DNA of 64,000 bases from Coriobacteriia bacterium (GTDB lineage: Bacteria > Actinomycetota > Coriobacteriia > Anaerosomatales > JBAZZO01). The position numbers and the translations under genes are program-made. The stretch covers positions 37,947 to 101,946 of the forward strand of contig JBAZZO010000006.1 in the NCBI GenBank assembly GCA_041658765.1, read 5' to 3'. Numbering within the stretch: position 1 is the first letter of the stretch; each line of letters begins with the position of its first letter. Positions 16,997 to 51,601 of the stretch are shown here, in pieces. The notes beneath the pieces were generated by a model. It saw nothing but the letters and a program-made list of their open reading frames with translations, did no database searches and was not told the DNA's origin.

Positions 16997-17136
16997 CCTC
17001 GCGACGAGCCTGCGCCGAGCCGACGCTCCGTGCCGCCGGGTAGATTCTCCGGCAACGCCTCGGCCGCGTCCATCATCCACCAGGACCTGCTTGCCCGCGC
17101 TGTTTGCGGCCGGTGACTCCTGGTAATGTATCGTCC

Positions 17137-22614: not shown

Positions 22615-22707
22615 GGCGGGAATGATACCACCGTGACGCGCGCGGTGCGGGCGAGGGCGTGTGTCACAATGTAGGTGGCTTTCGAGCAGTGGGGAGGAGG
22701 GGATAGG

Positions 22708-33451: not shown

Positions 33452-33473
33452 CACGGGCGGAGGCAGACCGGCG

Positions 33474-36197: not shown

Positions 36198-36235
36198 CCC
36201 CGCGAGTGCCGGTACCGATCAGGGAGGGAACGGAC

Positions 36236-37093: not shown

Positions 37094-37103
37094 GAGGCGT
37101 GAA

Positions 37104-38051: not shown

Positions 38052-38069
38052 CGCATCCGCAAGGAGAAG

Positions 38070-40025
38070 GTGAGCCCGATGTCCGACGAATCCACCGCCA
38101 CCGAGTCCGACGAATACAGCATCGATCCGACAACGGCCCAGATGCTCAAGATCGCCGACGACCTCGGGATAGAGACGGCGTTCTCGCGGTCGCGCTCCAT
38201 CAAGCCGTGCTCGACCGGTGCGACCGGGGGATGCTGCAAGCTGTGCGCGATGGGACCGTGTCGCCTCATCGGCAAGCACGAACGCGGCGTCTGCGGCGCC
38301 GATCGCGAGACGATCGCCGCGCGCAACTTCGTGCGGCAGGTCGCAGCAGGGGCCTCCGCGCACTCGGATCACGGTCGCGAAGTCGCTCTGGCACTGCGCG
38401 GGATCGCCACCGGAGAGATCGAGGGCGGCTCCATCGCCGACACCATCAAGCTGGCCAAGGTCGCCGGGTACATGGGTATCGACATCGCCGGCAAGGACGT
38501 GAGCCAGCTCGCGCTCGAAGTGGCCGACTGCGCCCTAGCGCAGTTCGGCCAGCAGACCGGCGAGCTGGTCTACATCGGTCGCGCACCGAAGAAGCGCCAG
38601 GACCTGTGGCGCAAGTACGGCGTGGTGCCGCGCGGCGTCGACCGCGAGGTGGTCGAGGCGATGCACCGCACGGCGGCCGGTACCGACCAGAACCACCTGA
38701 CCCTGCTCGACGGAGCCGTGAAGTGCGCGCTCGCGAGCGGCTGGGGCGGTTCGATGCTCGCCACCGACCTGCAGGACATCCTCTATGGGACCCCGCAGGC
38801 GTTGCGCTCCTCCGCCAACCTCGGCGTTCTCTCCGAGGAGAAGGTGAACATCCTCATCCACGGTCACGAGCCGCTGCTCGCCTCGATGATCATCGACGTC
38901 GCGCACGAAGCGGAGATGATCGCGCTGGCCGAGTCGGTGGGCGCCAAGGGCATCAACATCGCCGGCATCTGCTGCACCGCCAACGAGTCGCTCATGCGCA
39001 AGGGCGTCCCGCCCGCGGGCAACATGCTCCAGCAGGAGCTCGCAGTCCTGACGGGCGCCGTCGAAGCGATGGTCGTCGACGTGCAGTGCATCTTCCAGGG
39101 CCTGAACGAGGTCGCCTCGCACTTCCACACCAAGCTCATCTCCTCGAGTCCGAAGGCGCGCGTCGGCGACTCCGAGCACATCGTCGTCGACGAGCACAAG
39201 CCCATGGAGGCCGCGCGAGCCATCGTCCGCGCCGCGATCGAGAACTTCCCGAACCGCAAGGACACGCACATCCCTCACGTGTCCGAGCCGATAGTCGCCG
39301 GCTTCAGCCACGAGTACATCCGCTACATGCTCGGCGGCAAGATGCGCGCTTCGCTCACGCCGCTGAACGAGAACATCGTCAACGGCAGGATCCGCGGCGT
39401 GGCGGCGGTCGTGGGCTGCTCGAACCCGCGTGCCGTCCAGGACTACGCGGTCGTCAACGTGGTGCGCGAGCTCATCGCCAACAACGTGCTCGTCGTGGTG
39501 ACCGGCTGCGCCGCGATCACGAGCGGCAAGCATGGCCTGCTCACCCCCGAGACGATGGAGTTCGCGGGCGAGACGCTGCGGGAGGTCTGCGAGACCGTGG
39601 GCATCCCGCCGGTCCTGCACATGGGCTCGTGCGTCGACAACTCGCGCATCCTCACAGTCCTCGCCGACGTCGCGGCGACCGGGGGACTCGGCGACGACAT
39701 CGCGGGTCTGCCCGCGGTGGGGCTCTCGCCCGAATGGTTCTCGGAGAAGGCGCTCGAGATCGCCACATATGCCGTGGCCTCTGGGGTCCACGTCATCTTC
39801 GGCGGCGTGGGCTCTCCGGTCGCGAACAGTCCGATCGTCACCGAGTACATGATCTCGGGCTGGACCGAGCGCTACGGGGGCAGCCTTCGCTTCATCACCG
39901 AACCGCAGGACATGGTCGTCGCCACACTCGACCTCATCGACGCCGCGCGCAAAGCGCTCAAGATCGATGTGGCCGCCGAACGCGTCCTGTTCGACATGGA
40001 CATGAGGAGGGAACTCAGTGTCTAA
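38070..40025 (+). CDS. acsA: anaerobic carbon-monoxide dehydrogenase catalytic subunit
   Basis: 651 aa. The N-terminal Cys cluster is CSTGATGGCCKLCAMGPCR...GVCGA, and the CooS pattern continues throughout. ATG at 38079 is an alternative start. Confidence 0.95.
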   Translation: MSPMSDESTATESDEYSIDPTTAQMLKIADDLGIETAFSRSRSIKPCSTGATGGCCKLCAMGPCRLIGKHERGVCGADRETIAARNFVRQVAAGASAHSDHGREVALALRGIATGEIEGGSIADTIKLAKVAGYMGIDIAGKDVSQLALEVADCALAQFGQQTGELVYIGRAPKKRQDLWRKYGVVPRGVDREVVEAMHRTAAGTDQNHLTLLDGAVKCALASGWGGSMLATDLQDILYGTPQALRSSANLGVLSEEKVNILIHGHEPLLASMIIDVAHEAEMIALAESVGAKGINIAGICCTANESLMRKGVPPAGNMLQQELAVLTGAVEAMVVDVQCIFQGLNEVASHFHTKLISSSPKARVGDSEHIVVDEHKPMEAARAIVRAAIENFPNRKDTHIPHVSEPIVAGFSHEYIRYMLGGKMRASLTPLNENIVNGRIRGVAAVVGCSNPRAVQDYAVVNVVRELIANNVLVVVTGCAAITSGKHGLLTPETMEFAGETLREVCETVGIPPVLHMGSCVDNSRILTVLADVAATGGLGDDIAGLPAVGLSPEWFSEKALEIATYAVASGVHVIFGGVGSPVANSPIVTEYMISGWTERYGGSLRFITEPQDMVVATLDLIDAARKALKIDVAAERVLFDMDMRRELSV

Positions 40026-42201
40026 GATCATCGCCTCCGCCGCGATCCGCGGCGCTCACAGCATCGTCGGCAAGGCCGAGGCCACGCTCGCAAAGGTCAA
40101 GGAGGCGCACGGCGCCGAGCACGCTGTCGAGTTCCCCAACACCGCCTACTACCTCCCCGTCGTCTACGGTTTGACGGGCGAGAAGGTCGAGAAGCTCTCG
40201 GACATGGACCGCGTACTCGCCATCGCGCGCGACCTTCTTCCCGAGGCCCCCTCGGAGCACCTGTGGCTGCCCTACCTCGGAGGCACGCTCGACGCCGGCA
40301 TCGCCACGCTGCTGGCCGAGGAGTGCATCGAGGCCATGACCTACGTCACCGACGATCCGCCCCCGGTGACCGACCTGTGGCTCGGCGCCGCGGACGACGT
40401 CATCATGCGCGCCAAGGGCGTCGAGTTCGTCGACGGCTCGGCTCCCGGTTTCGCCGCCGTGGTCGGCGCCGCTCCCGACAACGCGACCGCGGTCAGACTC
40501 GCCCGGGAGATGCAGGAGAAGATGCTCTACGTCTTCATGGCCGGTCACGACGGCGGTGTCGCGTTCGGAGAGCAACTCGCCGCCGAGGACATCCAGCTCG
40601 GATGGGACTCCCGTCTCGTCCCGTTCGGCAAGGAGGTCTACAGCCAGATCTACTCCGTCGGCTTCGCCACCCGTGCCGCCATGGCGTTCGGCGGCGTCCA
40701 GCCGGGCGACTACGAGCGCATCCTGGCCTACAACAAGAGCCGCGTCTTCGCGTTCGTGCTCGCGCTCGGAGAGGTCACCGACGAGTGGTACGCGACCGCG
40801 GCCGGCGCCATCAGCTACGGCTTCCCGACCATAGCCACGAGCGACATCCCGCAGATCCTGCCCACCGGCGTGTGCACCTACGAGCACGTGGTGTCCAACA
40901 TCGGCTGCGACGAGCTCGTGCAGAAGGCCGTCGAGGTCCGCGGTCTGAAGATCAAGGTCATCGACATGCCCATCCCGGTGAGCTACGGTCCCGCGTTCGA
41001 GGGCGAGCGCGTGCGCCGCGAGGACACCCATGCCGAGGCCGGCGGCCAGAAGAGCACCGCCTTCGAACTTCTGCGCACCCGCGACGCTGCCGAGGTCACG
41101 GACGGCAGGATCGAGGTCATCGGGCCGGAGCTCGACGAACTCGAAGAGGGCGCGCTCGTCCCGCTCGGCATCGTCGTGGACGTGGCCGGCCGCAAGATGC
41201 AGTCCGACTTCGAGCCGGTCATCGAGCGCCAGTTTCACCACCTCATGAACTTCGCGGAGGGCGTTCTCCACATGGGGCAGCGCGACCTGATCTGGCTGCG
41301 CATCAGCAAGGCGGCGAAGGAGAAGGGTTTCCGGTTCCACCACCTCGGCGACCTCCTGCACGCCAAGCTGCTCGACGAGTTCGACGCCATCGTCGACAAG
41401 GTGCAGGTCACGATCTACACCGAGCAGGCCAAGGTCGACGAGATGATCGTCGAGGCGCGCGCGATCTACGACGTACGCGACGAGCGGATGGCGGGCCTCA
41501 ACGACGACACCGTCGACGTCTTCTACTCGTGCTCGCTGTGCCAGAGCTTCGCGCCCAACCATCTCTGCGTGGTGACGCCCGAGCGTCTCGGCCTGTGCGG
41601 CGCCTACAACTGGCTCGACGCCAAGGCGAGCAACGAACTCAAGCCCACCGGCCCCAACCAGCCCATCACGAAGGGCGCGCTCCTCGAGGAGCGCCTCGGT
41701 CAGTGGTCCGGGGTCAACGAGTTCATCTGGGAGAAGTCGGGCCGCACGATCGAGAGGATGAGCTGCTACTCCCTCATGACCGACCCGATGACGAGCTGCG
41801 GCTGCTTCATGTGCATCATCGCCCTCCTGCCGATGTGCAACGGCGTGATGATCGTGAACAGGGAGTTCGCCGGCATGACCCCGTCGGGCATGAAGTTCTC
41901 CACGCTCGCCGGCATGATCGGCGGCGGAGTGCAGGCGCCGGGCTTCATGGGCGTGGGCCGCGGATACCTTACGAGCCGCAAGCTCCTCTACGCCGAGGGC
42001 GGCCTGTCGCGCGTGGTCTGGATGCCCAAGGAGCTCAAGGAGACGATAGCGTCCTCTCTCAAGCCCCGCATGGAGGAGATGGGCGATCCCGGCTTCCTCG
42101 ACAAGATCTGTGACGAGACCATCGCCGAGACCGAGGACGCCGTGCTCGAGTTCCTCACGAGCGTGAACCACCCCGCCCTTTCCATGGACCCGCTCTTCTA
42201 G
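40018..42201 (+). CDS. acsB: acetyl-CoA synthase (ACS alpha subunit)
   Basis: 727 aa. FPNTAYYLPVVYG is present. The A-cluster Cys region is CSLCQSFAPNHLCVVTPERLGLCG...SCGCF. It overlaps acsA by 8 nt. Confidence 0.95.
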   Translation: MSKIIASAAIRGAHSIVGKAEATLAKVKEAHGAEHAVEFPNTAYYLPVVYGLTGEKVEKLSDMDRVLAIARDLLPEAPSEHLWLPYLGGTLDAGIATLLAEECIEAMTYVTDDPPPVTDLWLGAADDVIMRAKGVEFVDGSAPGFAAVVGAAPDNATAVRLAREMQEKMLYVFMAGHDGGVAFGEQLAAEDIQLGWDSRLVPFGKEVYSQIYSVGFATRAAMAFGGVQPGDYERILAYNKSRVFAFVLALGEVTDEWYATAAGAISYGFPTIATSDIPQILPTGVCTYEHVVSNIGCDELVQKAVEVRGLKIKVIDMPIPVSYGPAFEGERVRREDTHAEAGGQKSTAFELLRTRDAAEVTDGRIEVIGPELDELEEGALVPLGIVVDVAGRKMQSDFEPVIERQFHHLMNFAEGVLHMGQRDLIWLRISKAAKEKGFRFHHLGDLLHAKLLDEFDAIVDKVQVTIYTEQAKVDEMIVEARAIYDVRDERMAGLNDDTVDVFYSCSLCQSFAPNHLCVVTPERLGLCGAYNWLDAKASNELKPTGPNQPITKGALLEERLGQWSGVNEFIWEKSGRTIERMSCYSLMTDPMTSCGCFMCIIALLPMCNGVMIVNREFAGMTPSGMKFSTLAGMIGGGVQAPGFMGVGRGYLTSRKLLYAEGGLSRVVWMPKELKETIASSLKPRMEEMGDPGFLDKICDETIAETEDAVLEFLTSVNHPALSMDPLF

Positions 42202-42229
42202 GGCGCGAGCAGCAAAAGGAGTGAGCCGG

Positions 42230-43579
42230 ATGGCTCTCAGCGGCATCGAGATATTCAAACAGCTCCCCAAGACCAACTGCGGCGACTGCGGTGTTCCCAC
42301 CTGCCTGGCTTTCGCCATGAAGCTCGCGCAGGGCCAGGCTGAGCTCGCTGCGTGCCCCCACATCTCCGACGAGGCGAAGGCAGCCCTGGCCTCGGCGGCG
42401 GCGCCGCCCATGCGCGCCGTGACGGTGGGCAAGGGCGACGCGGCGTTCACCGTGGGCGAGGAGACCGTCGTCTTCCGGCACGATCGGACCTTCGTCAACC
42501 CGTGCGCGATCGGCGTGAGCGTCGACGCGAGTGCGGCCGACGAAGGGATCGACGCCGTGGTCGCACAGGCCGAAGCGGCGAGCTTCGAGCGCGTCCAGCA
42601 GCACCTGGCCTGCGGGTTCGTGGCCGTGCGCGGCGACGGCGATGCCGCCCGCTACAAGGCGGCCGTCGAGCGCGTGATGTCGAAGACGTCCCTGCCGCTC
42701 GTGCTGATGACCGAAGACGCCGCCGAGGCGGGGGCCGCTCTGGAATCCGCCGCCGCCGCCGGGCGCCCGCTCCTGTGTGCTGCGACCGCCGCGAACGCCG
42801 ACGCCATGATCGAGTTGGCCAAGCGGCACTCCTGCCCTCTCGTGGTCCGCGGCGACGGGCTGGCCGAAGTGGCCGCGCTCACCGCCAAGGCGAAAGCGGC
42901 CGGCGTCGAGGACCTCGTCATCGACAGCGCTCCGAAGACCGCCGGCGCTGCCCTGCGCGACGCGGTGTTCGCGCGCCGCTGCGCGCTCGTCAAGAAGTTC
43001 GCGGAGCTCGGCTATCCCACCATCTGCTTCCCCTGCGACCTCGCCGGCGGCGACGCCATGCTCGAGACGGCGTACGCCGCTGTGGATGTCGCCAAGTACG
43101 GCAGCATCATCGTCCTGTCGGGCGCGGAGCCGTGGCGGATGCTTCCCCTGCTGGTCCTGCGTCAGAACATCTTCACCGATCCGCAGCGCCCGATGCAGGC
43201 CGAGTCGAAGATCTACGCCATCAACGATCCCGGGCCGGAGGCACCCTTCCTCGTCACCACCAACTTCTCGCTCACGTACTTCATCGTCTCCTCGGAGATA
43301 GAGGGCGGGAGGATGCCGGCCTACCTCGGCATCGTCGATGCGGAGGGCCTGTCGGTCCTCACCGCGTGGGCGGCCGGCAAGTTCGTCCCGGAGCGGATAG
43401 CCAAGTTCGTCAAGGACACCGGCATCGCCGAGACGGTCTCGCATCGCGAGATCATCATCCCCGGCGCCGTCGCCCAGATCAGTGGCGAGCTCGCGGAGGA
43501 ACTTGACGGGTGGACCGTGACCGTGGGTCCCTACGAGGCGGCCGAGCTGCCGGCCTTCCTCAAGAGACGTGCCGGCTAA
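42230..43579 (+). CDS. acsC: corrinoid iron-sulfur protein large subunit (CODH/ACS gamma)
   Basis: The N-terminal 4Fe-4S motif is TNCGDCGVPTCLAFAMKL. ATG at 42230 follows AAAGGAG. The track start is 42221. Confidence 0.9.
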   Translation: MALSGIEIFKQLPKTNCGDCGVPTCLAFAMKLAQGQAELAACPHISDEAKAALASAAAPPMRAVTVGKGDAAFTVGEETVVFRHDRTFVNPCAIGVSVDASAADEGIDAVVAQAEAASFERVQQHLACGFVAVRGDGDAARYKAAVERVMSKTSLPLVLMTEDAAEAGAALESAAAAGRPLLCAATAANADAMIELAKRHSCPLVVRGDGLAEVAALTAKAKAAGVEDLVIDSAPKTAGAALRDAVFARRCALVKKFAELGYPTICFPCDLAGGDAMLETAYAAVDVAKYGSIIVLSGAEPWRMLPLLVLRQNIFTDPQRPMQAESKIYAINDPGPEAPFLVTTNFSLTYFIVSSEIEGGRMPAYLGIVDAEGLSVLTAWAAGKFVPERIAKFVKDTGIAETVSHREIIIPGAVAQISGELAEELDGWTVTVGPYEAAELPAFLKRRAG

Positions 43580-43600
43580 CGCACGCGAGACCGAGGGACG

Positions 43601-45601
43601 GTGGTCCTCATGGCGGCGCAGAAGACCGGTGGATCGCTCGACTGGTCTCCCATGCCGCCCACTGTCTTCGCGCCATGCCGCTCGAAGTGCCCGGCGCACG
43701 TCGACGTCCCGGGCTACATCACCGCGATCGCCGAAGGCCGGTTCACGGATGCGCTCGAGATCGTGCTCGAGCGCAACCCTCTTCCGAGCGTGTGCGGGCG
43801 TATCTGCCTGCGTCCTTGCGAGGAGGGCTGTAGGCGCTGTCTGCTCGACGAACCGGTCGCCATCGCCATGCTCAAGCGAGCGGCGGCCGATTTCGGCGCC
43901 TACCAGCACCCCAAGCCTCGGGCCCTGCGCAAGGAGTCGGTCGCGGTGGTGGGCTCAGGCCCCGCGGGCCTGACCGTCGCGCACGACCTGGCCGCCCAAG
44001 GCCTTCGCGTGACCATCATCGAAGCCAAGCCCAAGCTCGGAGGCATGCTCCGATACGGCATCCCCGAGTACCGCCTGCCCGGCAAGGCCCTCGACCGGGA
44101 CATCAGCCACATCCTCTCGCTGGGGGTGGAGGTGCGCACCGGCGTCAAGGTCGGAGCAGACGTGACGCTGGCGCGACTCGGCGAGGAGCACGACGCCGTC
44201 GTGGTGACCGCCGGTCTCCAGAGCAGCCGCGTCCTGGAGATCCCCGGCGCCCACCTGCCGCGGGTCCTGGCCGCGCTGCCGTTCCTGGAGGCGGCGGCGT
44301 GCGGAGAGAGGACCGGCATCGGGAAGCGCGTCGTCGTGGTGGGCGGCGGTAACGTGGCGATGGACGTGGCGCGCACGGCCCGACGGCTCGGCGCGGCGCA
44401 GGTCGATGTCGTCTGTCTCGAGAGCGCAGAGGAGATGCCCGCCTCGCGACAGGAGGTCGAGGAGGCGAGGCTCGAGGGCGTCGGGGTGCACTGTTCGTGG
44501 GGTCCGCGCGAGATCTTGGGCGAAGAGGATGTCTCCGCTCTCGACGTGGTCCGGTGCACGTCGGTCTTCGATGAGGACCGGCGGTTCTCGCCTGTGTTCG
44601 ACGAGAGCGAGACGCGTCGCTTCGAGGCCGACACCGTCATCTTCGCCACGGGGCAGGGCGCCGACATCGGCGATCTCGGCATCGAGACCACGCCGCGCGG
44701 AGGTGCGGTCATAGACCCGCAGACCATGAAGACGTCGATCGAAGGTGTCTACGCCGCCGGAGACGTGGTGACGGGCCCGACCAAGGTCATCGACGCCATC
44801 GCCGAAGGCCACCGGGTGGCCGCGTGCGTGATACGGGACCTGACCGGGGACACCGCGTTGCTCGACGGGCTCGACCAGGAGAGCGACACGCTGGGCGAGG
44901 TGCCCGAGAGCATGCGGTACAAGGTCGTGACCCGCAGGCGCGTCCAGATGGAGAGGCTCGAGTTCTACGAGGCCGTCGGCACTTTCGACGAGATCGAAGC
45001 AGGCTACACCGAATACGAGGCCGCCCGCGAGGCCCAGAGGTGCCTCGGCTGCACGACCGGCGCTCGGCTGGTGCGTGAGAAGTGCGCGTCGTGCCTCACC
45101 TGCGTGCGCGTGTGCCCCCACAACGCGCCCAACGTGAAGTACCGCGGCTATCTGATCTTCGACGCGGAGGCGTGCCACGCGTGCGGCGCCTGCGCGTCGC
45201 AGTGTCCGGCGCACGCCATCAACATCGAGGGCCACTCGGAAGAGGAGATGGATCGCCGCGTCGAGACGGTCCTGGCCGGCAGCGCCGGCGACGCGACCAT
45301 GCAGTTCGCCTGCGGGTGCACGCCTCTCCTCCCCGAGCTGGGCTTGAGCGACCCGCGGACCCTGACGGTCACATGTCTGCTCCGCGTGAGCGAGGCGACG
45401 GTGCTCCGCGCGCTCCAGCACGGAGCTGGACGAGTGGTCTTCACCGGTTGCGTCGAGGTCAACTGCCGCTATCCCTACGCGCGCGAACTGGTCGCGCGCC
45501 GGGAGGCCGACATCCGTGCGCTGCTCAGGCAGATGGGGATGGATGACGCCCTCATCGTCCCCGAGGCGACCGACGAGGACGAAGGAGTGCACCTGAGATG
45601 A
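43601..45601 (+). CDS. fusion protein: GltD/NfnB-like NAD(P)H flavin oxidoreductase + 2x[4Fe-4S] ferredoxin + MvhD-like domain
   Basis: The N-terminal Fe-S region reads CPAHVDVPGY...CGRICLRPCE. Two Rossmann motifs are seen (VAVVGSGPAGL, VVVVGGGNVAMD). CASCLTCVRVCP and CHACGACASQCP follow. The C-terminal ...VVFTGCVEVNCRYPY is MvhD/FlpD-like. ATG at 43610 is an alternative start. Confidence 0.8.
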   Translation: MVLMAAQKTGGSLDWSPMPPTVFAPCRSKCPAHVDVPGYITAIAEGRFTDALEIVLERNPLPSVCGRICLRPCEEGCRRCLLDEPVAIAMLKRAAADFGAYQHPKPRALRKESVAVVGSGPAGLTVAHDLAAQGLRVTIIEAKPKLGGMLRYGIPEYRLPGKALDRDISHILSLGVEVRTGVKVGADVTLARLGEEHDAVVVTAGLQSSRVLEIPGAHLPRVLAALPFLEAAACGERTGIGKRVVVVGGGNVAMDVARTARRLGAAQVDVVCLESAEEMPASRQEVEEARLEGVGVHCSWGPREILGEEDVSALDVVRCTSVFDEDRRFSPVFDESETRRFEADTVIFATGQGADIGDLGIETTPRGGAVIDPQTMKTSIEGVYAAGDVVTGPTKVIDAIAEGHRVAACVIRDLTGDTALLDGLDQESDTLGEVPESMRYKVVTRRRVQMERLEFYEAVGTFDEIEAGYTEYEAAREAQRCLGCTTGARLVREKCASCLTCVRVCPHNAPNVKYRGYLIFDAEACHACGACASQCPAHAINIEGHSEEEMDRRVETVLAGSAGDATMQFACGCTPLLPELGLSDPRTLTVTCLLRVSEATVLRALQHGAGRVVFTGCVEVNCRYPYARELVARREADIRALLRQMGMDDALIVPEATDEDEGVHLR

Positions 45602-46257
45602 TCGTGGTGCGCGCGAAACCTCTCGAGGAGGTCTTCGACATGGTCGTCGCTCACGAGCGAGTCCTTCTCGTGGGCTGCAACACGTGCGCCGCCGTCTCCT
45701 TGGCCGGCGGGGAGATGGAGGTCGCCACGCTCGTCGAGGCGCTCCGCTTGATGGCCGCGCGCCGCGGCCGCGCGATCGAGTTCACCGGCTCGGTCCTGCA
45801 GCGCCAGTGCGAGCCCGAGTTCCTCGAGGAGCTCGGGGACGAGGGGTACGACGCCGTGCTCTCGCTGGGGTGCGGCGCGGGCGTGGCCCTGCTCTCCGAC
45901 ACCACGAAGGTTCCGGTGTATCCGGCGCTCGACACCATGTTCATCGGCGCGGCCAAGGGATTCGCCTCGTGGCAGGCCGAGTGTTCGGCATGCGGCCAGT
46001 GCGTGCTCGGCCGCACCGCCGGCATCTGCCCGATCACGCGTTGCGCGAAGGGCATCATGAACGGCCCGTGCGGCGGCGTGAAGGACGGCCGCTGCGAGCT
46101 TGGCGACCGCGACTGCGCCTGGGTGCTCATCTACGAGCGTCTCGAGGCCCAAGGCCGCCTCGGCGAGTTCGGGCGGTTCGGCGAGGCGAAGGACCACTCC
46201 GTCCGCTCGAAGTGCGACGTGTGGGACATGAGCGACAAGGGGGGTGAGCCGAAGTGA
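45598..46257 (+). CDS. metV: methylene-THF reductase small subunit MetV (Cys-rich C-terminal-domain protein)
   Basis: 219 aa. CNTCAA...CSACGQCVLGRTAGICPITRCAKGIMNGPCGG is present. ATGA overlap upstream and GTGA overlap downstream. Confidence 0.85.
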   Translation: MIVVRAKPLEEVFDMVVAHERVLLVGCNTCAAVSLAGGEMEVATLVEALRLMAARRGRAIEFTGSVLQRQCEPEFLEELGDEGYDAVLSLGCGAGVALLSDTTKVPVYPALDTMFIGAAKGFASWQAECSACGQCVLGRTAGICPITRCAKGIMNGPCGGVKDGRCELGDRDCAWVLIYERLEAQGRLGEFGRFGEAKDHSVRSKCDVWDMSDKGGEPK

Positions 46258-47135
46258 CGTTGCGGGAAGCGCTGGAGTCCGGCGAGTTCGTCGTGACCTC
46301 CGAGGTCGGCCCGCCCAAGGGGACCGACATCTCGGAGATGCTCTCCGCCGCCGAGATGTTGCGCGGCCGCGTGCACGCGCTCAACGTCACCGACAACCAG
46401 GCGGCTGTCATGCGCCTGTGCACCTTGGCGGCCTGCGTCCATCTCAAGGAGCGCGGCTTCGATCCGGTGCTGCAGGTGACCTGTCGAGACCGCAACCGGC
46501 TAGCGATGCAGTCGGACCTTCTCGGCGCAGCCTCCTTCGGCATCACGAACGTGCTCGCGCTGACCGGCGATCACGTTGCTGTCGGGGATCATCCGCAGGC
46601 CAAGCCGGTCTTCGATCTCGAGTCCGTGCAGCTCCTGGAGGCGATCAGGGCGCTGCGGTCCGGTCACGACCTGGCCGGCAACGAGCTGCACGGCACGCCG
46701 GAGTTCTTCGCCGGCGCCGTCGTCACCCCTGACGCTCACCCGCTCGCGCCGCAGCTCGCCAAGTTCGAGAAGAAGGTGGCCGCCGGCGCGCGCTACTTCC
46801 AGACCCAGGCGGTCTACGACCCGGCGACGTTCCGCGGGTTCATGGAGTATGCGCACGGACTCGGCGCGAAGGTGCTCGCCGGCCTCGTCATCCTGCGCTC
46901 GGCGCGGATGGCACGCTTCATGACCAAGAACATCCCCGGCATCTCGGTGCCCCAGCCGCTCATCGACGAGCTCGATCGCGCGGAGGACCCCGTCGCCGTC
47001 GGCGTCGAGATAGCGGCCCGCTTCATCACTCAGACGCGCGATGTGTGCGACGGTGTCCACATGATGGCCGTGGGAGCCGAGCACCTCGTCCCCAGGGTGC
47101 TCGACGCGGCCGGGCTCGAAGGGGTGAGCACGTGA
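46254..47135 (+). CDS. metF: 5,10-methylenetetrahydrofolate reductase
   Basis: 293 aa. VTSEVGPPKG, ALNVTDNQ and the TIM-barrel MTHFR pattern are seen. Confidence 0.9.
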   Translation: MTLREALESGEFVVTSEVGPPKGTDISEMLSAAEMLRGRVHALNVTDNQAAVMRLCTLAACVHLKERGFDPVLQVTCRDRNRLAMQSDLLGAASFGITNVLALTGDHVAVGDHPQAKPVFDLESVQLLEAIRALRSGHDLAGNELHGTPEFFAGAVVTPDAHPLAPQLAKFEKKVAAGARYFQTQAVYDPATFRGFMEYAHGLGAKVLAGLVILRSARMARFMTKNIPGISVPQPLIDELDRAEDPVAVGVEIAARFITQTRDVCDGVHMMAVGAEHLVPRVLDAAGLEGVST

Positions 47136-47908
47136 AAGTAGCGGTCTCGGGCAAGGGCGGCGTCGGCAAGACCACACTCGCGGCGGGCCTCGCGCTGCTC
47201 TTCGCGGAGGCGGGCAGGCGGGTCATCGCCATCGATGCGGACCCCGACGCCAACCTCGCCATGGCCCTCGGCGCCACGCCCGAGGCCGCCGCGGCGTGCG
47301 TGCCGCTCGTCGAGGAGGACGAGCTCATCGAGGAGCGCACCGGCGCGGCCCCCGGCAGGGGCGGCATGTTCATCCTCGATCCCGACGTCTCCGACGTCGT
47401 CGAGCGCTGCGGCGTCACCTTCAACGGCGTGACCATGCTCAAGATGGGGACGGTGGAGCGCGGCGGTTCGGGATGCATGTGCTCGGAAGGCACCTTCCTC
47501 AAGGCGTTCATGCGCGATCTGCTCGTCGATCGTGACGATGTGGCCATCCTCGACATGGAGGCCGGCATCGAGCACCTCGGTCGCGGCACCGCCGAGGCGG
47601 TCGACGTGCTCATCGTGGTGATCGAGCCCGGCGGACGCTCGGTCCAGACGGCGCGCCAGGTCCGCGCGCTCGCGGCCGACATCGGCATCCGCGACGTCGT
47701 GGCGGTCGCGAACAAGGTCCGCGACGCCGACGATGCCGTGTTCGTGCGCGACGCGCTCGGCGACATCCCCCTGCTCGGCACGATGCCGCTGTGTGAGGGC
47801 GTCAGAGTCGCCGATCGCGAGGGGCGTCCTTCGTATCACGCCGACCCGGCCCTCGACGAAGCGCTGAGCGACATCGCGGGCGCGCTCGCGGCGCGGGTCG
47901 ACTGGTAG
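47132..47908 (+). CDS. cooC: CODH/ACS nickel-insertion accessory ATPase (CooC/AcsF family), copy 2
   Basis: GTG at 47132 overlaps the metF stop. SGKGGVGKTT and GSGCMC motifs are present. Confidence 0.85.
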   Translation: MKVAVSGKGGVGKTTLAAGLALLFAEAGRRVIAIDADPDANLAMALGATPEAAAACVPLVEEDELIEERTGAAPGRGGMFILDPDVSDVVERCGVTFNGVTMLKMGTVERGGSGCMCSEGTFLKAFMRDLLVDRDDVAILDMEAGIEHLGRGTAEAVDVLIVVIEPGGRSVQTARQVRALAADIGIRDVVAVANKVRDADDAVFVRDALGDIPLLGTMPLCEGVRVADREGRPSYHADPALDEALSDIAGALAARVDW

Positions 47909-47942
47909 CGGTCTCCAGCAACGATCAACGTCAGGAGGACAG

Positions 47943-48767
47943 ATGCTCGTCATCGGTGAGAAGGTCAACATCATGAGCAAGACCATCGGCCCTGCGATGC
48001 GTGAGCGCGACGAAGGGCCCGTGCGTGCCATGGCGCTCACCCAGGTGGAGGGCGGCGCCGACGTGCTCGACATCAACCTCGGCCCCGCCACCAGGGGCGG
48101 CCCCGAGATGATGGAGTGGGTCGTGAAGGTGGTGCAGGAAACGGTCCCCGAAACCCGTCTGTGTCTCGACACGATGAACCCCCAGGCGATGGAGGCGGGC
48201 CTGAGGGTCTGCAAGCTCCAGCCGATCATCAATTCGACGTCGGCCGAGCGTGCCCGTCTCGAGACGTACTTGCCGATGGCGAAGACCTACGAGGCCGAGA
48301 TCATCGGTCTGGCGATGACGGAGCACGGCGTCTCCCGCGACGCCAACGAGCGCATCGAGGCGGCCATGACGATCCTTGCCGCGATGATCGAGTTCGGCGT
48401 GCCGGCGGACCGCCTCTACCTCGACCCGCTCCTGCTCCCCGTGAGCGTGGCCCAGCAGCAGGCGCCCGAGGCGGCCGAGGCGATCGCCATGTTCGGTCAA
48501 CTCGACGAGCCGCCGCTGAAAACGACGGTCGGCCTCTCGAACATCTACAATGGCTGTCCGGAGCACGTGAAGTCGCCGCTGGCCGCGGCCCTGCTCGCGA
48601 TCATGATCCCCGCGGGCCTGACCTCGGCGATCATGGACCCCAACGACGAGCTCCAGATGATGGTCGCCCGCGCCGATCCGGCCGAACTCGAGCTGACCGA
48701 GTCGCTCGAGAAGTCGATGTCGGTGCTGCGGAACGAGACACTGTACTGCGACTCGTACCTGGACTAG
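47943..48767 (+). CDS. acsE: methyl-THF:corrinoid/iron-sulfur protein methyltransferase
   Basis: 274 aa with a pterin-binding barrel (IGEKVN..., DVLDINLGPA). Operon context supports the call. Confidence 0.9.
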   Translation: MLVIGEKVNIMSKTIGPAMRERDEGPVRAMALTQVEGGADVLDINLGPATRGGPEMMEWVVKVVQETVPETRLCLDTMNPQAMEAGLRVCKLQPIINSTSAERARLETYLPMAKTYEAEIIGLAMTEHGVSRDANERIEAAMTILAAMIEFGVPADRLYLDPLLLPVSVAQQQAPEAAEAIAMFGQLDEPPLKTTVGLSNIYNGCPEHVKSPLAAALLAIMIPAGLTSAIMDPNDELQMMVARADPAELELTESLEKSMSVLRNETLYCDSYLD

Positions 48768-48788
48768 CGAGAGGGCCCGGAGACGATC

Positions 48789-49292
48789 ATGGGTGAGTGC
48801 ACCTGCGCGACGGGGCGCGACGAGGGTTTCGACCCCGCGCTGCTCGATGCTGTGCTGGCGGAGCACGCCTCGACGGCCGACGCTCTCATCCCCCTGCTGC
48901 AGGCGACCCAGCGTGCGTACGGCTACCTGCCCGAGGACGCCATGCGGCGCATCGCCGTCGCGCTCGGCCGGCCGCTGTCGGCCGTCCTCGGAGTCGCGAC
49001 GTTCTACGCGCAGTTCCACCTCACGCCGCGCGGCCGGCGGATCGTGCGGGTGTGCCACGGCACCGCGTGTCACGTGAAGGGCGCGCTCGAGGTCACCGAG
49101 GCGCTCGTCGACGAGCTAGGTGTCGCCGTCGGCCGGACCGCCGACGACAGGAGCGTGACGCTCGAGTCCGTGGCGTGCGTGGGTTGCTGCGGCCTCGGCC
49201 CGATCGTCCTCGTCGACGACGAGCCGCACGGCGGTCTCGACGCCAAGAGCACGCGCAAGCTCGCCAAGAGCATCAAGCGGGGGAGGGACTGA
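48789..49292 (+). CDS. NuoE/HydC/FdsG-like [2Fe-2S] subunit
   Basis: 167 aa. The thioredoxin-like 2Fe-2S motif is VCHGTACHVKG...CVGCCGLGP. Confidence 0.85.
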   Translation: MGECTCATGRDEGFDPALLDAVLAEHASTADALIPLLQATQRAYGYLPEDAMRRIAVALGRPLSAVLGVATFYAQFHLTPRGRRIVRVCHGTACHVKGALEVTEALVDELGVAVGRTADDRSVTLESVACVGCCGLGPIVLVDDEPHGGLDAKSTRKLAKSIKRGRD

Positions 49293-51100
49293 TGTCGCCG
49301 ACCTCGAGCCGCGACCCCAGCGCCGTCATCCGCGTCTGCACGGGCTCCGGCTGCGTCATGAACGGCTCGTTGCGCTCGGCCGAGCGTCTCGAGGCCGCCA
49401 TCGCCGAGGCGGGCGCGAGCGAGAAGGTCCGCGTCGTGCGCACGGGCTGCCATGGCCTGTGCGAACTCGGCCCGATCACGGTGATCGATCCCGACCGCAT
49501 CTTCTATCCGAAGGTGACGGAGTCGAAGGCGGCCGCCATCGTCGACGCCCTGCTCGGCGGGGGCTCGCCGGTGACCGACTATCTCTACCGCGACACGGCG
49601 GACTCCGAGCCCGTGGAGCGCTACGAGGACATCCCGTTCAACCGGATCCAGCAGCGCATCGTGCTGAGGAACTGCGGCCTCGTCGACCCCGAGTCGATCG
49701 ACGACGCCGTCGGGCGCGGAGTCTACGAGGGCCTGCGGAAGGCACTGGCCGAGCTCTCGCCCGACGAGGTCATCGAGATCGTCCAGGGATCGGGTCTGCG
49801 CGGGCGCGGCGGCGCCGGCTTCTCCACTGGGATGAAGTGGCGTTTCACCCGCGACGCGGCCGGCGACCTCAAGTACGTGATCTGCAACGCGGACGAGGGC
49901 GACCCCGGCGCCTTCATGGACCGCTCCATCGCCGAAGGCGATCCGCATTCGGTCCTCGAGGGGCTCTCGATCGCGGCCTACGCCGTGGGCGCGAGCACCG
50001 GCTTCGTCTACGTGCGCGCCGAGTACCCGCTCGCGGTGAAGCGCATACGGAAGGCGATCGCCGACGCGCAGGAACGCGGACTCCTGGGGCAGAACGTGCT
50101 CGGCTCCGGCTTCTCCTTCCACCTGGAGGTGCGCGAGGGCGCCGGCGCGTTCGTGTGCGGCGAAGAGACGGCGCTCATGGCGTCGATCGAGGGCGGTCGC
50201 GGCATGCCGCGCTTCCGCCCGCCGTTCCCGGCGCAGTCCGGGCTGTGGGCGAAGCCCACGTGCATCAACAACGTGGAGACGCTCGCCAACGTGGGGTGGA
50301 TCGTCACCAACGGCGCCGACGCGTATTCGTCGATAGGCACCGGCACGAGCCACGGCACGAAGGTCTTCGCGCTCACCGGCCGGGTCCGGCGCACGGGTCT
50401 CGTCGAGGTGCCGATGGGCCGCACCGTCTCCGACCTCGTCTTCGAGGTGGGCGGCGGCTCCTCGTCGGCGAAGCCGATCAAGGCGGTCCAGATCGGAGGG
50501 CCTTCCGGCGGCTGCCTGCCGCTCGAGCTCTTCGACACCCCCATCGAGTACGATGCGCTCGCTGCCGCGGGCGCCGTGGTCGGGTCCGGCGGGATCGTGG
50601 TGGTCGACGACGGCACCTGCATGGTCGACCTCGCGCGCTACTTCCTCTCCTTCACCCAGGACGAGAGCTGCGGCAAGTGCGTCCCGTGCCGCATCGGCAC
50701 GAAGCGCATGCTCGAGCTCGTCACGCGCATCTGCGCGGGCGAGGGCGAGGAGGGCGACATCGAGAAGCTGGAGCGCCTCGCGAACGACGTGAAGGCGTCT
50801 TCCCTGTGCGGGCTGGGGCAGACCGCGCCCAACCCCGTGCTCACCACGCTGCGCTACTTCCGCCACGAGTTCGAGGAGCACATCCGCGAACACCGCTGTC
50901 GCGCCGGCGCGTGCAAGGTGCTCTCGACATTCGTCGTCGTCGCCGAAGCCTGCAGGGGGTGCGGCGTGTGCAAGAAGAACTGCCCGGTGTCGGCGATCTC
51001 CGGCCGGCTCAGGGAGGTCCACGAGATAGACTACGCGTTGTGCGTGAAGTGCGGGCAGTGCGAAGTCCACTGTCCGTTCGAGGCGATAGCACGCAGGTAG
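49292..51100 (+). CDS. NuoF/HydB/FdsB-like NAD(P)H-binding flavoprotein with extra N-terminal 2Fe-2S and C-terminal 2x[4Fe-4S] domains
   Basis: ATG at 49292 overlaps the upstream TGA. GLRGRGGAGFSTGMKW (FMN site), ESCGKCVPCRIG and C-terminal CRGCGVCKKNCP...CVKCGQCEVHCP are seen. Confidence 0.9.
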   Translation: MSPTSSRDPSAVIRVCTGSGCVMNGSLRSAERLEAAIAEAGASEKVRVVRTGCHGLCELGPITVIDPDRIFYPKVTESKAAAIVDALLGGGSPVTDYLYRDTADSEPVERYEDIPFNRIQQRIVLRNCGLVDPESIDDAVGRGVYEGLRKALAELSPDEVIEIVQGSGLRGRGGAGFSTGMKWRFTRDAAGDLKYVICNADEGDPGAFMDRSIAEGDPHSVLEGLSIAAYAVGASTGFVYVRAEYPLAVKRIRKAIADAQERGLLGQNVLGSGFSFHLEVREGAGAFVCGEETALMASIEGGRGMPRFRPPFPAQSGLWAKPTCINNVETLANVGWIVTNGADAYSSIGTGTSHGTKVFALTGRVRRTGLVEVPMGRTVSDLVFEVGGGSSSAKPIKAVQIGGPSGGCLPLELFDTPIEYDALAAAGAVVGSGGIVVVDDGTCMVDLARYFLSFTQDESCGKCVPCRIGTKRMLELVTRICAGEGEEGDIEKLERLANDVKASSLCGLGQTAPNPVLTTLRYFRHEFEEHIREHRCRAGACKVLSTFVVVAEACRGCGVCKKNCPVSAISGRLREVHEIDYALCVKCGQCEVHCPFEAIARR

Positions 51101-51142
51101 GTCCGGCCGGGTGGCCGAGCCTGTGAGAGTGAGGAGGACGGG

Positions 51143-51583
51143 ATGAAGGTCCGCGACATCATGACCCCGAGGGTGGTGTCCTGTCCGCCTTCGGCGACCG
51201 TCGCAGAGGCCGCGCGAGTGATGCGGGACGAGCGGGTCGGCTCGATCCTGGTCGTCGACGAGAAGGGCGTGCTCGTCGGGTTGCTCACCGACCGGCAGAT
51301 CACGCACGCCGTGGTGGCCGACGGGCTCGACCCCAAGACGGTCGCCGTCGACGAGTTCATGTTCACCGATTTCGTTCCTCTCGAGCCGGACATGGACCTG
51401 CTCACCGCCGTACGCCTGCAGAAGGAGCTCGCGATGCGCCGCCTCCCGGTGCTCGAGAACGGCGTGCCGGTGGGCATCATGTCGGTCTCCGACATCGCGG
51501 CGTTCGTGAAGGAGTGCATCGACGCGGTCCTCGTCGAGGGCGAGGTCCGCGTGCTCAGGCGCGCGGGCCGGAGCCACGGCTAG
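51143..51583 (+). CDS. CBS-pair domain protein
   Basis: 146 aa. It has two CBS motifs (VRDIMTPRVV..., GIMSVSDIA). Confidence 0.8.
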   Translation: MKVRDIMTPRVVSCPPSATVAEAARVMRDERVGSILVVDEKGVLVGLLTDRQITHAVVADGLDPKTVAVDEFMFTDFVPLEPDMDLLTAVRLQKELAMRRLPVLENGVPVGIMSVSDIAAFVKECIDAVLVEGEVRVLRRAGRSHG

Positions 51584-51601
51584 GGTCCGAGAGGGAGCAT
51601 C

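What the first reader, a model, noticed from the sequence alone, without database searches (positions are those of the whole stretch)
43601..47135. MetFV is paired with a GltD-ferredoxin-MvhD fusion instead of HdrABC or RnfC2
A single 666-aa gene lies directly upstream of metV-metF, translationally coupled by an ATGA overlap. It fuses three parts. The first is a GltD/NfnB/SudA-like NAD(P)H:FAD module (two GxGxxG motifs and an N-terminal Fe-S region). The second is a 2x[4Fe-4S] ferredoxin domain (CASCLTCVRVCP, CHACGACASQCP). The third is an MvhD/FlpD-like C-terminus (VVFTGCVEVNCRYPY). Described acetogen MTHFR complexes are MetF alone, MetFV, MetFV-RnfC2 (Acetobacterium woodii) and MetFV-HdrABC-MvhD (Moorella, Sporomusa). 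No hdrA, hdrB or hdrC is present in this operon. The fusion is therefore a plausible, apparently different electron-input module for the methylene-THF reductase step. That step is energetically the most debated one of the pathway, because of possible bifurcation.
Basis: partly seen in the sequence, partly recalled or inferred. Interest (0 to 1): 0.72.

Follow-up and report, generated by a model that had tools for sequence, protein, structure and literature searches.

The report
New electron-input subunit for MetVF reductase
A previously uncharacterised iron-sulfur flavoprotein gene sits directly in front of the methylene-tetrahydrofolate reductase genes metV-metF here and in bacteria of many other phyla, so it is very probably the missing NADH-oxidising third subunit of a widespread, undescribed form of this key CO2-fixation enzyme.

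Summary
A 663/666-aa gene (43601/43610-45601) fuses three parts: a GltD/NfnB-like FAD and NAD(P)H module with an N-terminal Fe-S domain, a 2x[4Fe-4S] ferredoxin domain, and an MvhD ([2Fe-2S]) domain. It overlaps metV by ATGA, and metV overlaps metF by GTGA. The gene lies inside a complete Wood-Ljungdahl operon of a Coriobacteriia MAG. No hdrA, hdrB or hdrC occurs anywhere in the 64 kb.

The pairing is not a local oddity. In 57 of 71 informative loci from GTDB species genomes, the same fusion is followed directly by metV and/or metF, often as an isolated three-gene cassette. These loci include Actinomycetota, Dehalococcoidia, Anaerolineae, anammox Planctomycetota, Nitrospirota, Nitrospinota, Syntrophobacterales and Spirochaetota.

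The closest solved relatives of the flavin module are the non-bifurcating NADPH-input modules of StnC and Bfu-type NfnA. The protein shares their Lys ligand on the proximal cluster (K89), not the Glu of bifurcating NfnB. The NADPH motif VYRR is replaced by a conserved VCLE, which suggests NADH.

Best reading: a heterotrimeric NADH:methylene-THF reductase, a fifth MTHFR type, with a linear route FAD, four [4Fe-4S], MvhD [2Fe-2S], MetV, MetF. Bifurcation to ferredoxin is not excluded. No description was found in the searchable literature. Nothing is shown biochemically.

The parts
43610..45601 (+). Gene for the GltD-like / ferredoxin / MvhD fusion flavoprotein (663 aa from ATG 43610; 666 aa if GTG 43601 is used). 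Proposed NADH-oxidising third subunit of the MetVF methylene-THF reductase.
   Evidence: P0001 is 100% identical at 663 aa. AF2 model: pLDDT 87.8, pTM 0.86.
43670..43894 (+). N-terminal Fe-S domain (Fer4_20). In 663-aa numbering, Cys23, Cys27, Cys62, Cys66, Cys70 and Cys74 are invariant or nearly so, Cys77 is at least 90% conserved, and Lys89 is invariant. Cys27, Cys66, Cys70 and Lys89 align with the proximal-cluster ligands of Csac NfnA (Cys108, Cys147, Cys151, Lys170).
   Evidence: Pfam. Conservation. Alignments to 9bov_A, 8oh5_C and 4ylf_B. Ligand identities from PMC11829005 and PMC10482914.
43937..44809 (+). FAD and NAD(P)H dinucleotide-binding module (Pyr_redox_2). It carries GSGPAG for FAD and GGGNVA for NAD(P)H. 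A conserved VCLE (Cys269-Leu270-Glu271) sits where NADPH-dependent relatives have VYRR.
   Evidence: Foldseek hits to NfnA, StnC, NfnB and GltD.
45062..45223 (+). 2x[4Fe-4S] ferredoxin domain with two invariant CxxCxxCxxxCP motifs (Cys492/495/498/502 and Cys522/525/528/532). It is preceded by an invariant RCxxC (Cys478/481) that is shared with StnC.
   Evidence: A profile of the C-terminal part matches the C-terminal Fd domain of HdrA (9sfi_A, 5odc_A). NCBIfam HdrA2 model positions 572-742 match.
45356..45556 (+). MvhD/FlpD-like [2Fe-2S] domain. The four invariant Cys are 568, 589, 614 and 619. It is proposed to be the docking and electron-exit port towards MetV/MetF.
   Evidence: Pfam FlpD. 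Profile hits to MvhD chains 5odc_D, 7bkb_F and 9sw2_D at E about 1e-13. Residue alignment. Conservation.
45598..46257 (+). metV, the Fe-S/Zn subunit of the reductase. Its start overlaps the stop of the fusion gene (ATGA).
46254..47135 (+). metF, the catalytic flavin subunit. Its start overlaps the metV stop (GTGA). It scores far below the cut-off of the NAD(P)H-type MetF model TIGR00676 (74 against 294 bits).
31757..54319 (+). Surrounding Wood-Ljungdahl operon (context). Gene order: fhs, RACo, cooC, folD, acsD, cooS/acsA, acsB, acsC, [fusion, metV, metF], cooC, acsE, nuoE-like, nuoF-like, CBS, and a Sec-containing fdhA.
   Evidence: No + strand terminator-like site lies between 36000 and 54187. 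The same gene order is seen in L003-L007 and L085.

Best explanation
The gene encodes the third subunit of a heterotrimeric MetVF-type methylene-THF reductase, which would be a fifth MTHFR type. MetF and MetV of this kind have no pyridine-nucleotide site. The fusion protein supplies one.

Proposed electron route:
1. NADH is the inferred donor, because of the conserved Glu271 in VCLE. NADPH is not excluded. It reduces the FAD of the GltD-like module.
2. Electrons leave one at a time through the Lys-ligated proximal [4Fe-4S] and the distal [4Fe-4S] of the N-terminal domain.
3. They pass through the two [4Fe-4S] clusters of the ferredoxin domain and the [2Fe-2S] of the MvhD domain.
4. The MvhD domain docks on MetV/MetF. 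MetV clusters pass the electrons to the MetF flavin, which reduces methylene-THF.

In domain terms the protein is the ferredoxin-MvhD tail of an HdrA::MvhD fusion grafted onto a StnC/NfnA-type non-bifurcating NAD(P)H input module. Functionally it is the analogue of RnfC2 in Acetobacterium woodii.

What is shown: the domain architecture, the conservation of all cofactor ligands, translational coupling, and conserved synteny across phyla.

What is inferred: complex formation, the donor, the order of the clusters, and the absence of bifurcation.
For: Architecture: Pfam and NCBIfam.

Structure: a confident AF2 model. The top Foldseek hits are NfnA of NfnABC (9bov_A, 9n5u_A) and StnC (8oh5_C), with 584-691 aligned columns. 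NfnB, GltD and DPD follow.

Cofactor ligands: all are invariant in 68 homologues. K89 aligns with K170 of StnC/NfnA, whereas NfnB has Glu (LER against LKR). In StnC and NfnA this flavin sits at the start of a linear wire and does not bifurcate (PMC10482914; PMC11829005).

Donor: VYRR in the NADPH enzymes corresponds to VCLE here, with C269, L270 and E271 at least 90% conserved.

MvhD domain: it aligns Cys-for-Cys with solved MvhD structures. In S. ovata, tagged MvhD pulls down MetF (PMC9430772). In Moorella, mvhD lies next to metV.

Synteny: 57 of 71 loci have metV/metF directly downstream, many with a 4-nt overlap. Isolated three-gene cassettes occur. No Hdr family recurs in the flanks. The linkage is spread over nearly all clades of an NJ tree.

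Precedent: type II MetVF enzymes lack an NAD(P)H site, and RnfC2 is the known solution to that problem (PMC8760232).
Against: - There are no biochemical, proteomic or structural data for any member. No MetV structure exists in the PDB.
- About 20% of loci carry the fusion without metVF. Examples are a Bacillota/Syntrophomonadaceae clade next to an FMN_red-type flavoprotein, Desulfovirgula, and some Nitrospirota. The module is therefore not exclusively an MTHFR subunit.
- Five Fe-S clusters are more than a simple NADH-to-MetV wire needs.
- The NADH assignment rests on a general Rossmann-fold rule, not on a test.
- The rest of this MAG, with possible hdrABC or rnf genes, was not seen.
Confidence: 0.6

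Rival explanations
1. The three-subunit enzyme is electron-bifurcating. It would catalyse 2 NADH + methylene-THF + oxidised ferredoxin -> 2 NAD+ + methyl-THF + reduced ferredoxin, or the reverse confurcation in organisms that run the pathway oxidatively. One Fe-S branch would lead via MvhD to MetVF. The other would lead via a ferredoxin-like domain to ferredoxin.
For: - The flavin module belongs to the fold that bifurcates in NfnB.
- The protein has two separate cluster-bearing regions plus a [2Fe-2S] domain, which is more than a linear wire needs.
- MvhD and the HdrA-type ferredoxin domain come from bifurcating Hdr systems.
- Many carriers, such as Thermodesulfovibrionales, Syntrophobacterales and Dehalococcoidia, would probably use the step oxidatively. 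That direction is endergonic with NAD+ alone (PMC6295475).
- A bifurcating MTHFR has long been postulated (PMC8760232).
Against: - The proximal cluster has the Lys ligand of the non-bifurcating StnC/NfnA module, not the Glu of NfnB.
- No NfnA/NfnS-like [2Fe-2S]/FAD partner or HydBC-like core is conserved next to the cassette.
- The analogous RnfC2-MetVF enzyme does not bifurcate.
Confidence: 0.2
2. The fusion replaces only HdrA and MvhD. The working enzyme is still a type IV-like supercomplex that recruits HdrBC-like or other subunits encoded elsewhere in the genome.
For: - MvhD normally partners Hdr.
- In some Acetothermia, hdrA-mvhD lie next to metVF while hdrBC are encoded elsewhere (PMC9586279).
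- Only 64 kb of this MAG was seen.
Against: - The protein has no HdrA thioredoxin-reductase-like domain on which HdrBC could dock.
- No hdr genes lie within 8-10 kb in any sampled locus, and no Hdr family is among the recurrent neighbours.
- None is in this window.
Confidence: 0.08
3. The fusion is a general NAD(P)H:ferredoxin-type oxidoreductase that is merely co-regulated with one-carbon genes. It does not bind MetVF.
For: About 20% of loci lack metVF next to it. The orphan forms sit beside unrelated housekeeping genes.
Against: - 4-nt start/stop overlaps with metV occur in about 26 loci from different phyla.
- The cassette occurs away from all other Wood-Ljungdahl genes.
- Unlinked forms are derived sub-clades in the tree.
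- MetVF has no other nucleotide-binding partner in these loci.
Confidence: 0.07

Closest known systems
Type III MTHFR, RnfC2-MetV-MetF of Acetobacterium woodii (Bertsch et al. 2015, as summarised in PMC8760232)
   Same: Both are three-gene units in which an extra flavin/Fe-S subunit encoded next to metVF supplies the NADH site that MetV and MetF lack. This is the best functional analogue.
   Different: The input subunits are unrelated. RnfC2 is an RnfC/NuoF-type FMN protein with a MetV-like domain. Here the input subunit is a GltD/NfnL-type FAD protein with a ferredoxin domain and an MvhD domain.
Type IV MTHFR, MetFV-HdrABC-MvhD of Moorella thermoacetica and Sporomusa ovata (Mock et al. 2014; PMC9430772)
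   Same: Both have MetV, MetF and an MvhD element encoded next to metV. The Moorella HdrA even contains an inserted GltD domain with the NAD(P)H site. The ferredoxin-MvhD tail here resembles the C-terminus of HdrA plus MvhD (NCBIfam HdrA2 positions 572-742).
   Different: There is no HdrA thioredoxin-reductase-like (bifurcating) flavin domain, no HdrB and no HdrC. Everything is on one 663-aa chain.
GltD-like NADPH-input module of StnC (8OH5) and of NfnA in Bfu-type NfnABC (9BOV, 9N5U)
   Same: These are the closest solved structures (E about 1e-94 by sequence, about 1e-50 by fold). They share the PCxxxCPAH and CxxxCxxxC motifs, the Lys ligand of the proximal [4Fe-4S], and the RCxxC linker motif. 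In those enzymes the FAD starts a linear, non-bifurcating wire.
   Different: Those proteins carry an N-terminal [2Fe-2S] domain and a NuoG/Fdh-like domain, dock on a HydBC-like bifurcating core, and use NADPH (VYRR). Here those parts are absent, an MvhD domain is added, the partner is MetVF, and the motif is VCLE.
NfnB / NfnL of the bifurcating NfnAB (NfnSL) transhydrogenase (4YLF, 5JCA)
   Same: Same fold and cofactor set (FAD and two [4Fe-4S]). TM-score is 0.77-0.78 normalised to the target.
   Different: NfnB has Glu (LER) where this family has an invariant Lys (LKR). It has an N-terminal CxxC that is missing here. It has an NfnA partner that is absent here.
HdrL of Desulfobacterium autotrophicum and the HdrA-NfnB fusions of ANME-1 (PMC2702500, PMC9012536)
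   Same: Both are combinations of a GltD/NfnB-like NAD(P)H module with Hdr-system parts and an adjacent or fused MvhD.
   Different: Those retain the HdrA core and are not linked to metVF. This protein lacks the HdrA core.

Membership tests
GltD/NfnB/DPD-type Fe-S flavoprotein module | Fer4_20 N-terminal Fe-S domain followed by two dinucleotide-binding folds (FAD and NAD(P)H) | tested here: met
   Pfam PF14691 (E 8.6e-21) and PF07992 (E 2.8e-34). Foldseek TM 0.77-0.78 to NfnB and GltD.
Bifurcating NfnB (NfnSL type) | Glutamate ligand on the [4Fe-4S] cluster proximal to the bifurcating FAD | tested here: not met
   Lys89 is invariant. It aligns with Glu of 4ylf_B and 5vj7_A (LER) and with Lys170 of StnC/NfnA. 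The significance of this ligand comes from PMC10482914.
Bifurcating NfnB (NfnSL type) | Partner subunit NfnA/NfnS ([2Fe-2S] plus a second FAD, PyrK-like) encoded alongside | tested here: not met
   None is in the operon or in the cassettes L081-L084.
Bifurcating NfnB (NfnSL type) | Arg hydrogen-bonded to N5 of FAD (R201) | not testable with these tools
   The Arg of the E(Y/F)RLP motif is conserved (R155), but it is also conserved in non-bifurcating StnC. Geometry decides the function, and no model coordinates or cofactors are available.
StnC / Bfu-NfnA GltD-like input module | Proximal [4Fe-4S] ligated by three Cys and one Lys; FAD at the end of a linear cluster chain | tested here: met
   C27, C66, C70 and K89 align with Cys108, Cys147, Cys151 and Lys170 (with PMC11829005). 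Linearity of the chain is inferred only.
StnC / Bfu-NfnA (whole protein) | N-terminal [2Fe-2S] domain, a NuoG/Fdh-like domain, and a HydBC-like partner | tested here: not met
   The protein starts about 20 residues before the GltD module and ends with MvhD. nuoE/F-like genes exist downstream here, next to fdhA. They are absent from the isolated cassettes.
MvhD / FlpD | FlpD fold with four conserved Cys binding a [2Fe-2S] cluster | tested here: met
   PF02662 scores 46.3 bits against a cut-off of 22.3. Profile hits to solved MvhD chains at E about 1e-13. C589, C614 and C619 align with MvhD Cys, and C568 is invariant.
Type IV MTHFR (MetFV-HdrABC-MvhD) | hdrA, hdrB and hdrC encoded with metVF and mvhD | tested here: not met
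   No Hdr family was found in any scanned ORF of the window or among recurrent neighbours in 44 loci.
Type III MTHFR (RnfC2-MetVF) | RnfC-like FMN subunit next to metVF | tested here: not met
   The upstream gene is GltD-like, not RnfC-like. Only the logic of a three-subunit enzyme is shared.
HdrA2-type HdrA::MvhD fusion | Full-length match including the HdrA thioredoxin-reductase-like flavin domain | tested here: not met
   NF040770 matches only residues 488-650 (model positions 572-742), scoring 85 bits against a cut-off of 1100.
MetVF-type MTHFR core | MetF (PF02219) with adjacent MetV (PF12225) | tested here: met
   MetF scores far below the cut-off of the NAD(P)H-type model TIGR00676.

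The most novel reading that the evidence does not exclude
The fusion-MetV-MetF trimer is the long-sought electron-bifurcating methylene-THF reductase. It would couple exergonic methylene-THF reduction by NADH to ferredoxin reduction. In acetate- or methyl-oxidising carriers it would use reduced ferredoxin to drive methyl-THF oxidation with NAD+. The complex would be minimal, with three subunits and no Hdr, and would be used by anammox bacteria, Dehalococcoidia, Nitrospirota and subsurface Actinomycetota.
Probability: 0.2. Interest if true: 0.88.

Novelty: new variant of a known kind. Interest (0 to 1): 0.64.

Why it matters
The methylene-THF reductase step is the most exergonic step of the Wood-Ljungdahl pathway. 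Its electron donor decides whether acetogenesis, or its reversal, yields net ATP. For MetVF enzymes the physiological donor is still disputed (PMC8760232).

This family supplies an obvious donor module. It occurs in a large and ecologically important set of uncultured anaerobes, including anammox bacteria, and it forms a three-gene unit that is far simpler to express and image than the Hdr-containing complex.

The gene is currently annotated as 'FAD-dependent oxidoreductase', 'glutamate synthase beta subunit-like' or 'formate dehydrogenase beta subunit'. Genome-based energy budgets for these organisms therefore overlook it.

Tried and rejected
1. Rosetta-stone evidence. P0091 (882 aa) seemed to fuse the GltD module to MetV. 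tblastn on its contig (L085) shows the MvhD part in another frame, so it is a frameshift artefact or pseudogene. It proves adjacency only.

2. hdrABC in the window. I looked for these genes among the GC3-selected and manually added ORFs that I scanned and found none.

3. A solved MetV or MetVF complex, to learn how MvhD docks. There is none in the PDB copy.

4. Literature. Nine full-text searches found no description of this fusion as an MTHFR partner. Merino et al. 2020 only list 'gltD' in a figure legend of actinobacterial Wood-Ljungdahl clusters. Jiao et al. 2021 (ISME J) on the pathway in Actinobacteria is not in the searchable library and was not read. The cap on papers was reached.

5. 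NfnB-like bifurcating flavin module. I considered this and rejected membership because of the Lys/Glu ligand test.

6. Cluster-to-cluster distances. These could not be measured, because model coordinates are not exposed, so the linear-chain order stays an inference.

7. Terminator and promoter scans add nothing beyond chance.

Full report
**Observation**

The window is high-GC DNA (about 69% GC) from a Coriobacteriia metagenome-assembled genome. The deposited protein P0001 is 100% identical and is named only 'FAD-dependent oxidoreductase'.

ORF 43601-45601 on the + strand is 666 aa from GTG. The deposited form starts at ATG 43610 and has 663 aa. A GGTGG lies 5 nt upstream of that ATG, so I use 663-aa numbering below.

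Pfam finds four parts (666-aa numbering):
- Fer4_20 at 24-98.
- Pyr_redox_2 at 113-403.
- A two-cluster Fer4 domain at 488-541.
- FlpD/MvhD at 586-652, above its gathering score.

The stop of the gene overlaps the metV start (ATGA). The metV stop overlaps the metF start (GTGA). The one slip is that the second dinucleotide motif is GGGNVA rather than GxGxxG.

**Context in the window**

The gene sits in a complete Wood-Ljungdahl operon. The order is fhs, RACo, cooC, folD, acsD, cooS/acsA, acsB, acsC, the fusion, metV, metF, cooC, acsE, nuoE-like, nuoF-like, a CBS protein, and fdhA with an in-frame TGA at the canonical selenocysteine position.

No + strand terminator-like site lies between 36000 and 54187. 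Pfam and NCBIfam scans of the GC3-selected ORFs of the 64 kb, plus a few added by hand, found no HdrA, HdrB or HdrC.

**Anatomy of the protein**

An alignment of 68 homologues shows these residues invariant or at least 90% conserved:
- N-terminal domain: Cys23, 27, 62, 66, 70, 74 and 77, and Lys89.
- Both dinucleotide motifs.
- An RCxxC pair, Cys478 and Cys481.
- Two CxxCxxCxxxCP motifs, Cys492-502 and Cys522-532.
- Four Cys in the MvhD domain: 568, 589, 614 and 619.

AlphaFold2 gives a confident single-chain model with pLDDT 87.8 and pTM 0.86.

The closest solved relatives, by sequence and by fold, rank as follows:
1. NfnA of the Bfu-type NfnABC (9BOV, 9N5U) and StnC of the Sporomusa Stn transhydrogenase (8OH5), with 584-691 aligned columns.
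2. NfnB/NfnL, GltD and dihydropyrimidine dehydrogenase.

A profile of the C-terminal 227 residues matches the C-terminal ferredoxin domain of HdrA and, separately, solved MvhD chains at E about 1e-13. The cysteines are aligned. The NCBIfam model for HdrA2, an HdrA::MvhD fusion, matches residues 488-650 only.

The protein therefore reads as the ferredoxin-MvhD tail of an HdrA::MvhD fusion joined to a StnC/NfnA-type flavin module.

**Is the pairing with metVF real?**

I scanned one genome per GTDB species with patterns from the ferredoxin-MvhD part. More than 600 stretches matched, 447 were confirmed as relatives, and 80 loci were kept. tblastn with the proteins of this window gave these results:
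- The GltD part and the ferredoxin-MvhD part lie in one gene in 77 of 80 loci.
- Of 71 loci with at least 1.5 kb of downstream sequence, 57 (80%) have metV and/or metF directly after the fusion.
- About 26 of them have a 4-nt overlap.

The carriers include Coriobacteriia, Acidimicrobiia, Gaiellales, Ca. Aquicultor, Dehalococcoidia, Anaerolineae, Brocadiia and other Planctomycetota, Nitrospirota/Thermodesulfovibrionales, Nitrospinota, Syntrophobacterales and Spirochaetota.

Only 20 of the 71 loci have other Wood-Ljungdahl genes nearby. In L081-L084 the three genes are an isolated cassette among unrelated genes, with no Hdr gene within about 8 kb.

I also scanned the two genes on each side of the cassette in 44 loci outside Coriobacteriia, 147 genes in all. 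The recurrent families are two-component regulators and CODH/ACS subunits. No Hdr family is among those hit three or more times.

In a neighbour-joining tree, linkage to metVF is found in almost every clade. Unlinked copies form derived groups:
- A Bacillota/Syntrophomonadaceae clade that sits beside an FMN_red-type flavoprotein, dnaG and sigA.
- Two Nitrospirota loci.
- Three singletons.

The tree has no support values, so this is a qualitative statement.

At 50% clustering, 234 representative proteins match the C-terminal profile at E of 1e-30 or better. About 60 of the best 150 are full-length.

**How it most likely works**

MetF and MetV of the acetogen type have no pyridine-nucleotide site. 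A. woodii solves this with RnfC2 (PMC8760232). MetF here is of that kind, because it scores far below the cut-off of the NAD(P)H-type model. The fusion supplies an NAD(P)H site.

Two sequence features sharpen the picture.

1. Cluster ligand. The ligands of the [4Fe-4S] cluster next to FAD in Csac NfnA are Cys108, Cys147, Cys151 and Lys170 (PMC11829005). These align with Cys27, Cys66, Cys70 and the invariant Lys89. Bifurcating NfnB has Glu at this position, LER against LKR. The Stn study treats the Lys/Glu difference as one of two changes that separate the non-bifurcating StnC flavin from NfnB. It also shows that the StnC FAD feeds a linear chain of clusters (PMC10482914).

2. Nucleotide preference. 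The strand after the second Rossmann motif reads VYRR(S/T) in the NADPH-dependent relatives. In this family it reads a conserved VCLE. By the general rule for Rossmann folds, which is my own knowledge and was not tested here, an acidic residue at this position favours NADH.

I therefore propose this route: NADH, FAD, proximal and distal [4Fe-4S], the two ferredoxin-domain clusters, the MvhD [2Fe-2S], MetV, the MetF flavin, methylene-THF. The RCxxC pair shared with StnC may complete the distal cluster. This family lacks the N-terminal CxxC of NfnB. That assignment is an inference, and Cys62 and Cys77 remain unassigned.

There is indirect support for MvhD as the port to MetVF. mvhD lies next to metV in Moorella-type clusters. 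Tagged MvhD pulls down MetF in S. ovata (PMC9430772).

**Rival explanations**

- Bifurcation (about 0.2). The enzyme could couple NADH oxidation to reduction of both methylene-THF and ferredoxin, or run in reverse in oxidative carriers. In favour: the number of clusters, the parentage of the domains, and the occurrence in organisms likely to run the step oxidatively. Against: the Lys signature, the lack of a conserved second flavin subunit, and the non-bifurcating RnfC2 precedent.
- A larger complex with HdrBC encoded elsewhere (about 0.08). This cannot be excluded from one window. However, there is no HdrA core on which HdrBC could dock.
- Co-regulation without binding (about 0.07). This fits poorly with translational coupling across phyla.

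**Comparison with what is known, and novelty**

Reviews list four MTHFR types: MetF alone, MetVF, RnfC2-MetVF and MetVF-HdrCBA-MvhD. None contains this subunit. It works most like type III. Its parts are most like type IV, whose Moorella HdrA even carries a GltD insert, and like StnC/NfnA.

It fails the membership tests for NfnB, for whole StnC/NfnA, for HdrA2, and for types III and IV.

Nine full-text searches found no description of it. One paper on Actinobacteria merely labels a 'gltD' in Wood-Ljungdahl clusters. The library omits many subscription papers, including Jiao et al. 2021, so prior mention elsewhere is possible.

I rate it a new variant of a known kind. It is a widespread, unannotated, probably NADH-dependent three-subunit MTHFR, and it makes the donor question for this step directly testable.

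**Limits**

- Nothing here is biochemical.
- The P0091 'fusion' to MetV is a frameshift artefact.
- Cluster order, nucleotide preference and complex formation are inferences.

Noticed in passing
window 51602-54319 (TGA at 52676-52678): fdhA is one gene interrupted by an in-frame TGA in the motif HCARL-U-HSSTVAG, the canonical selenocysteine position of formate dehydrogenases. It follows nuoE-like (48789-49292), nuoF-like (49289-51100) and CBS (51143-51583) genes, which suggests an NAD(P)H- and possibly ferredoxin-linked FDH complex. No SECIS element or selenocysteine machinery was checked.
   Followed up: partly
L085 10001-12649 (protein P0091): An 882-aa gene call that appears to fuse the GltD module to MetV is a frameshift. 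The GltD and ferredoxin parts are in frame 2, the MvhD part in frame 3, and MetV in frame 2 again. The 2.67-Mb contig otherwise has the same operon order as the window.
   Followed up: yes
L023, L036, L064 (Brocadiaceae / Ca. Scalindua): In these anammox loci the fusion, with a complete MvhD-like tail, is followed directly by metF. No metV is detectable in the locus. Other Brocadia loci (L052, L057, L068) do have metV.
   Followed up: partly
L022, L033, L039, L049, L065, L069, L080 (Syntrophomonadaceae and other Bacillota); also L045 Desulfovirgula thermocuniculi: An orphan subfamily of the same fusion has no metVF beside it. In L022, the only one of these Bacillota loci scanned against Pfam, it sits after an NADPH-dependent FMN reductase-like gene and before an HD-domain phosphohydrolase gene, dnaG and sigA; the other six have flanking ORFs of similar sizes that were not scanned. 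Its partner is unknown.
   Followed up: partly
flanks of the cassette in 44 loci (L012-L074): The most frequent neighbours of the fusion-metV-metF cassette outside Coriobacteriia are two-component regulators: Response_reg in 18 of 147 genes, plus HATPase_c, GAF, PAS and GerE/LuxR. I did not tabulate which loci or taxa carry them. This suggests dedicated regulation of the cassette.
   Followed up: no
window 13695-17176 (-) and 22675-26300 (+): There are two divergently oriented copies of a gene pair: a HEAT-repeat protein (723 and 731 aa) and an HD-domain (HD_5) protein (437 and 477 aa). Their function is unknown.
   Followed up: no
window 33513-35417: A RACo (reductive activator of the corrinoid protein, acsV-like) gene lies between fhs and cooC. 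The mechanical ORF list hides it inside an 814-aa ORF that overlaps fhs.
   Followed up: yes
L050 2252-3808 and 6182-9868: A Nitrospinota contig carries two metV-metF pairs. Only one of them is preceded by the fusion.
   Followed up: no
one search hit table: Public annotations of this family are inconsistent and misleading. They include 'FAD-dependent oxidoreductase', 'NADPH-dependent glutamate synthase beta subunit-like oxidoreductase', 'formate dehydrogenase beta subunit' and 'hydrogenase iron-sulfur subunit'.
   Followed up: no
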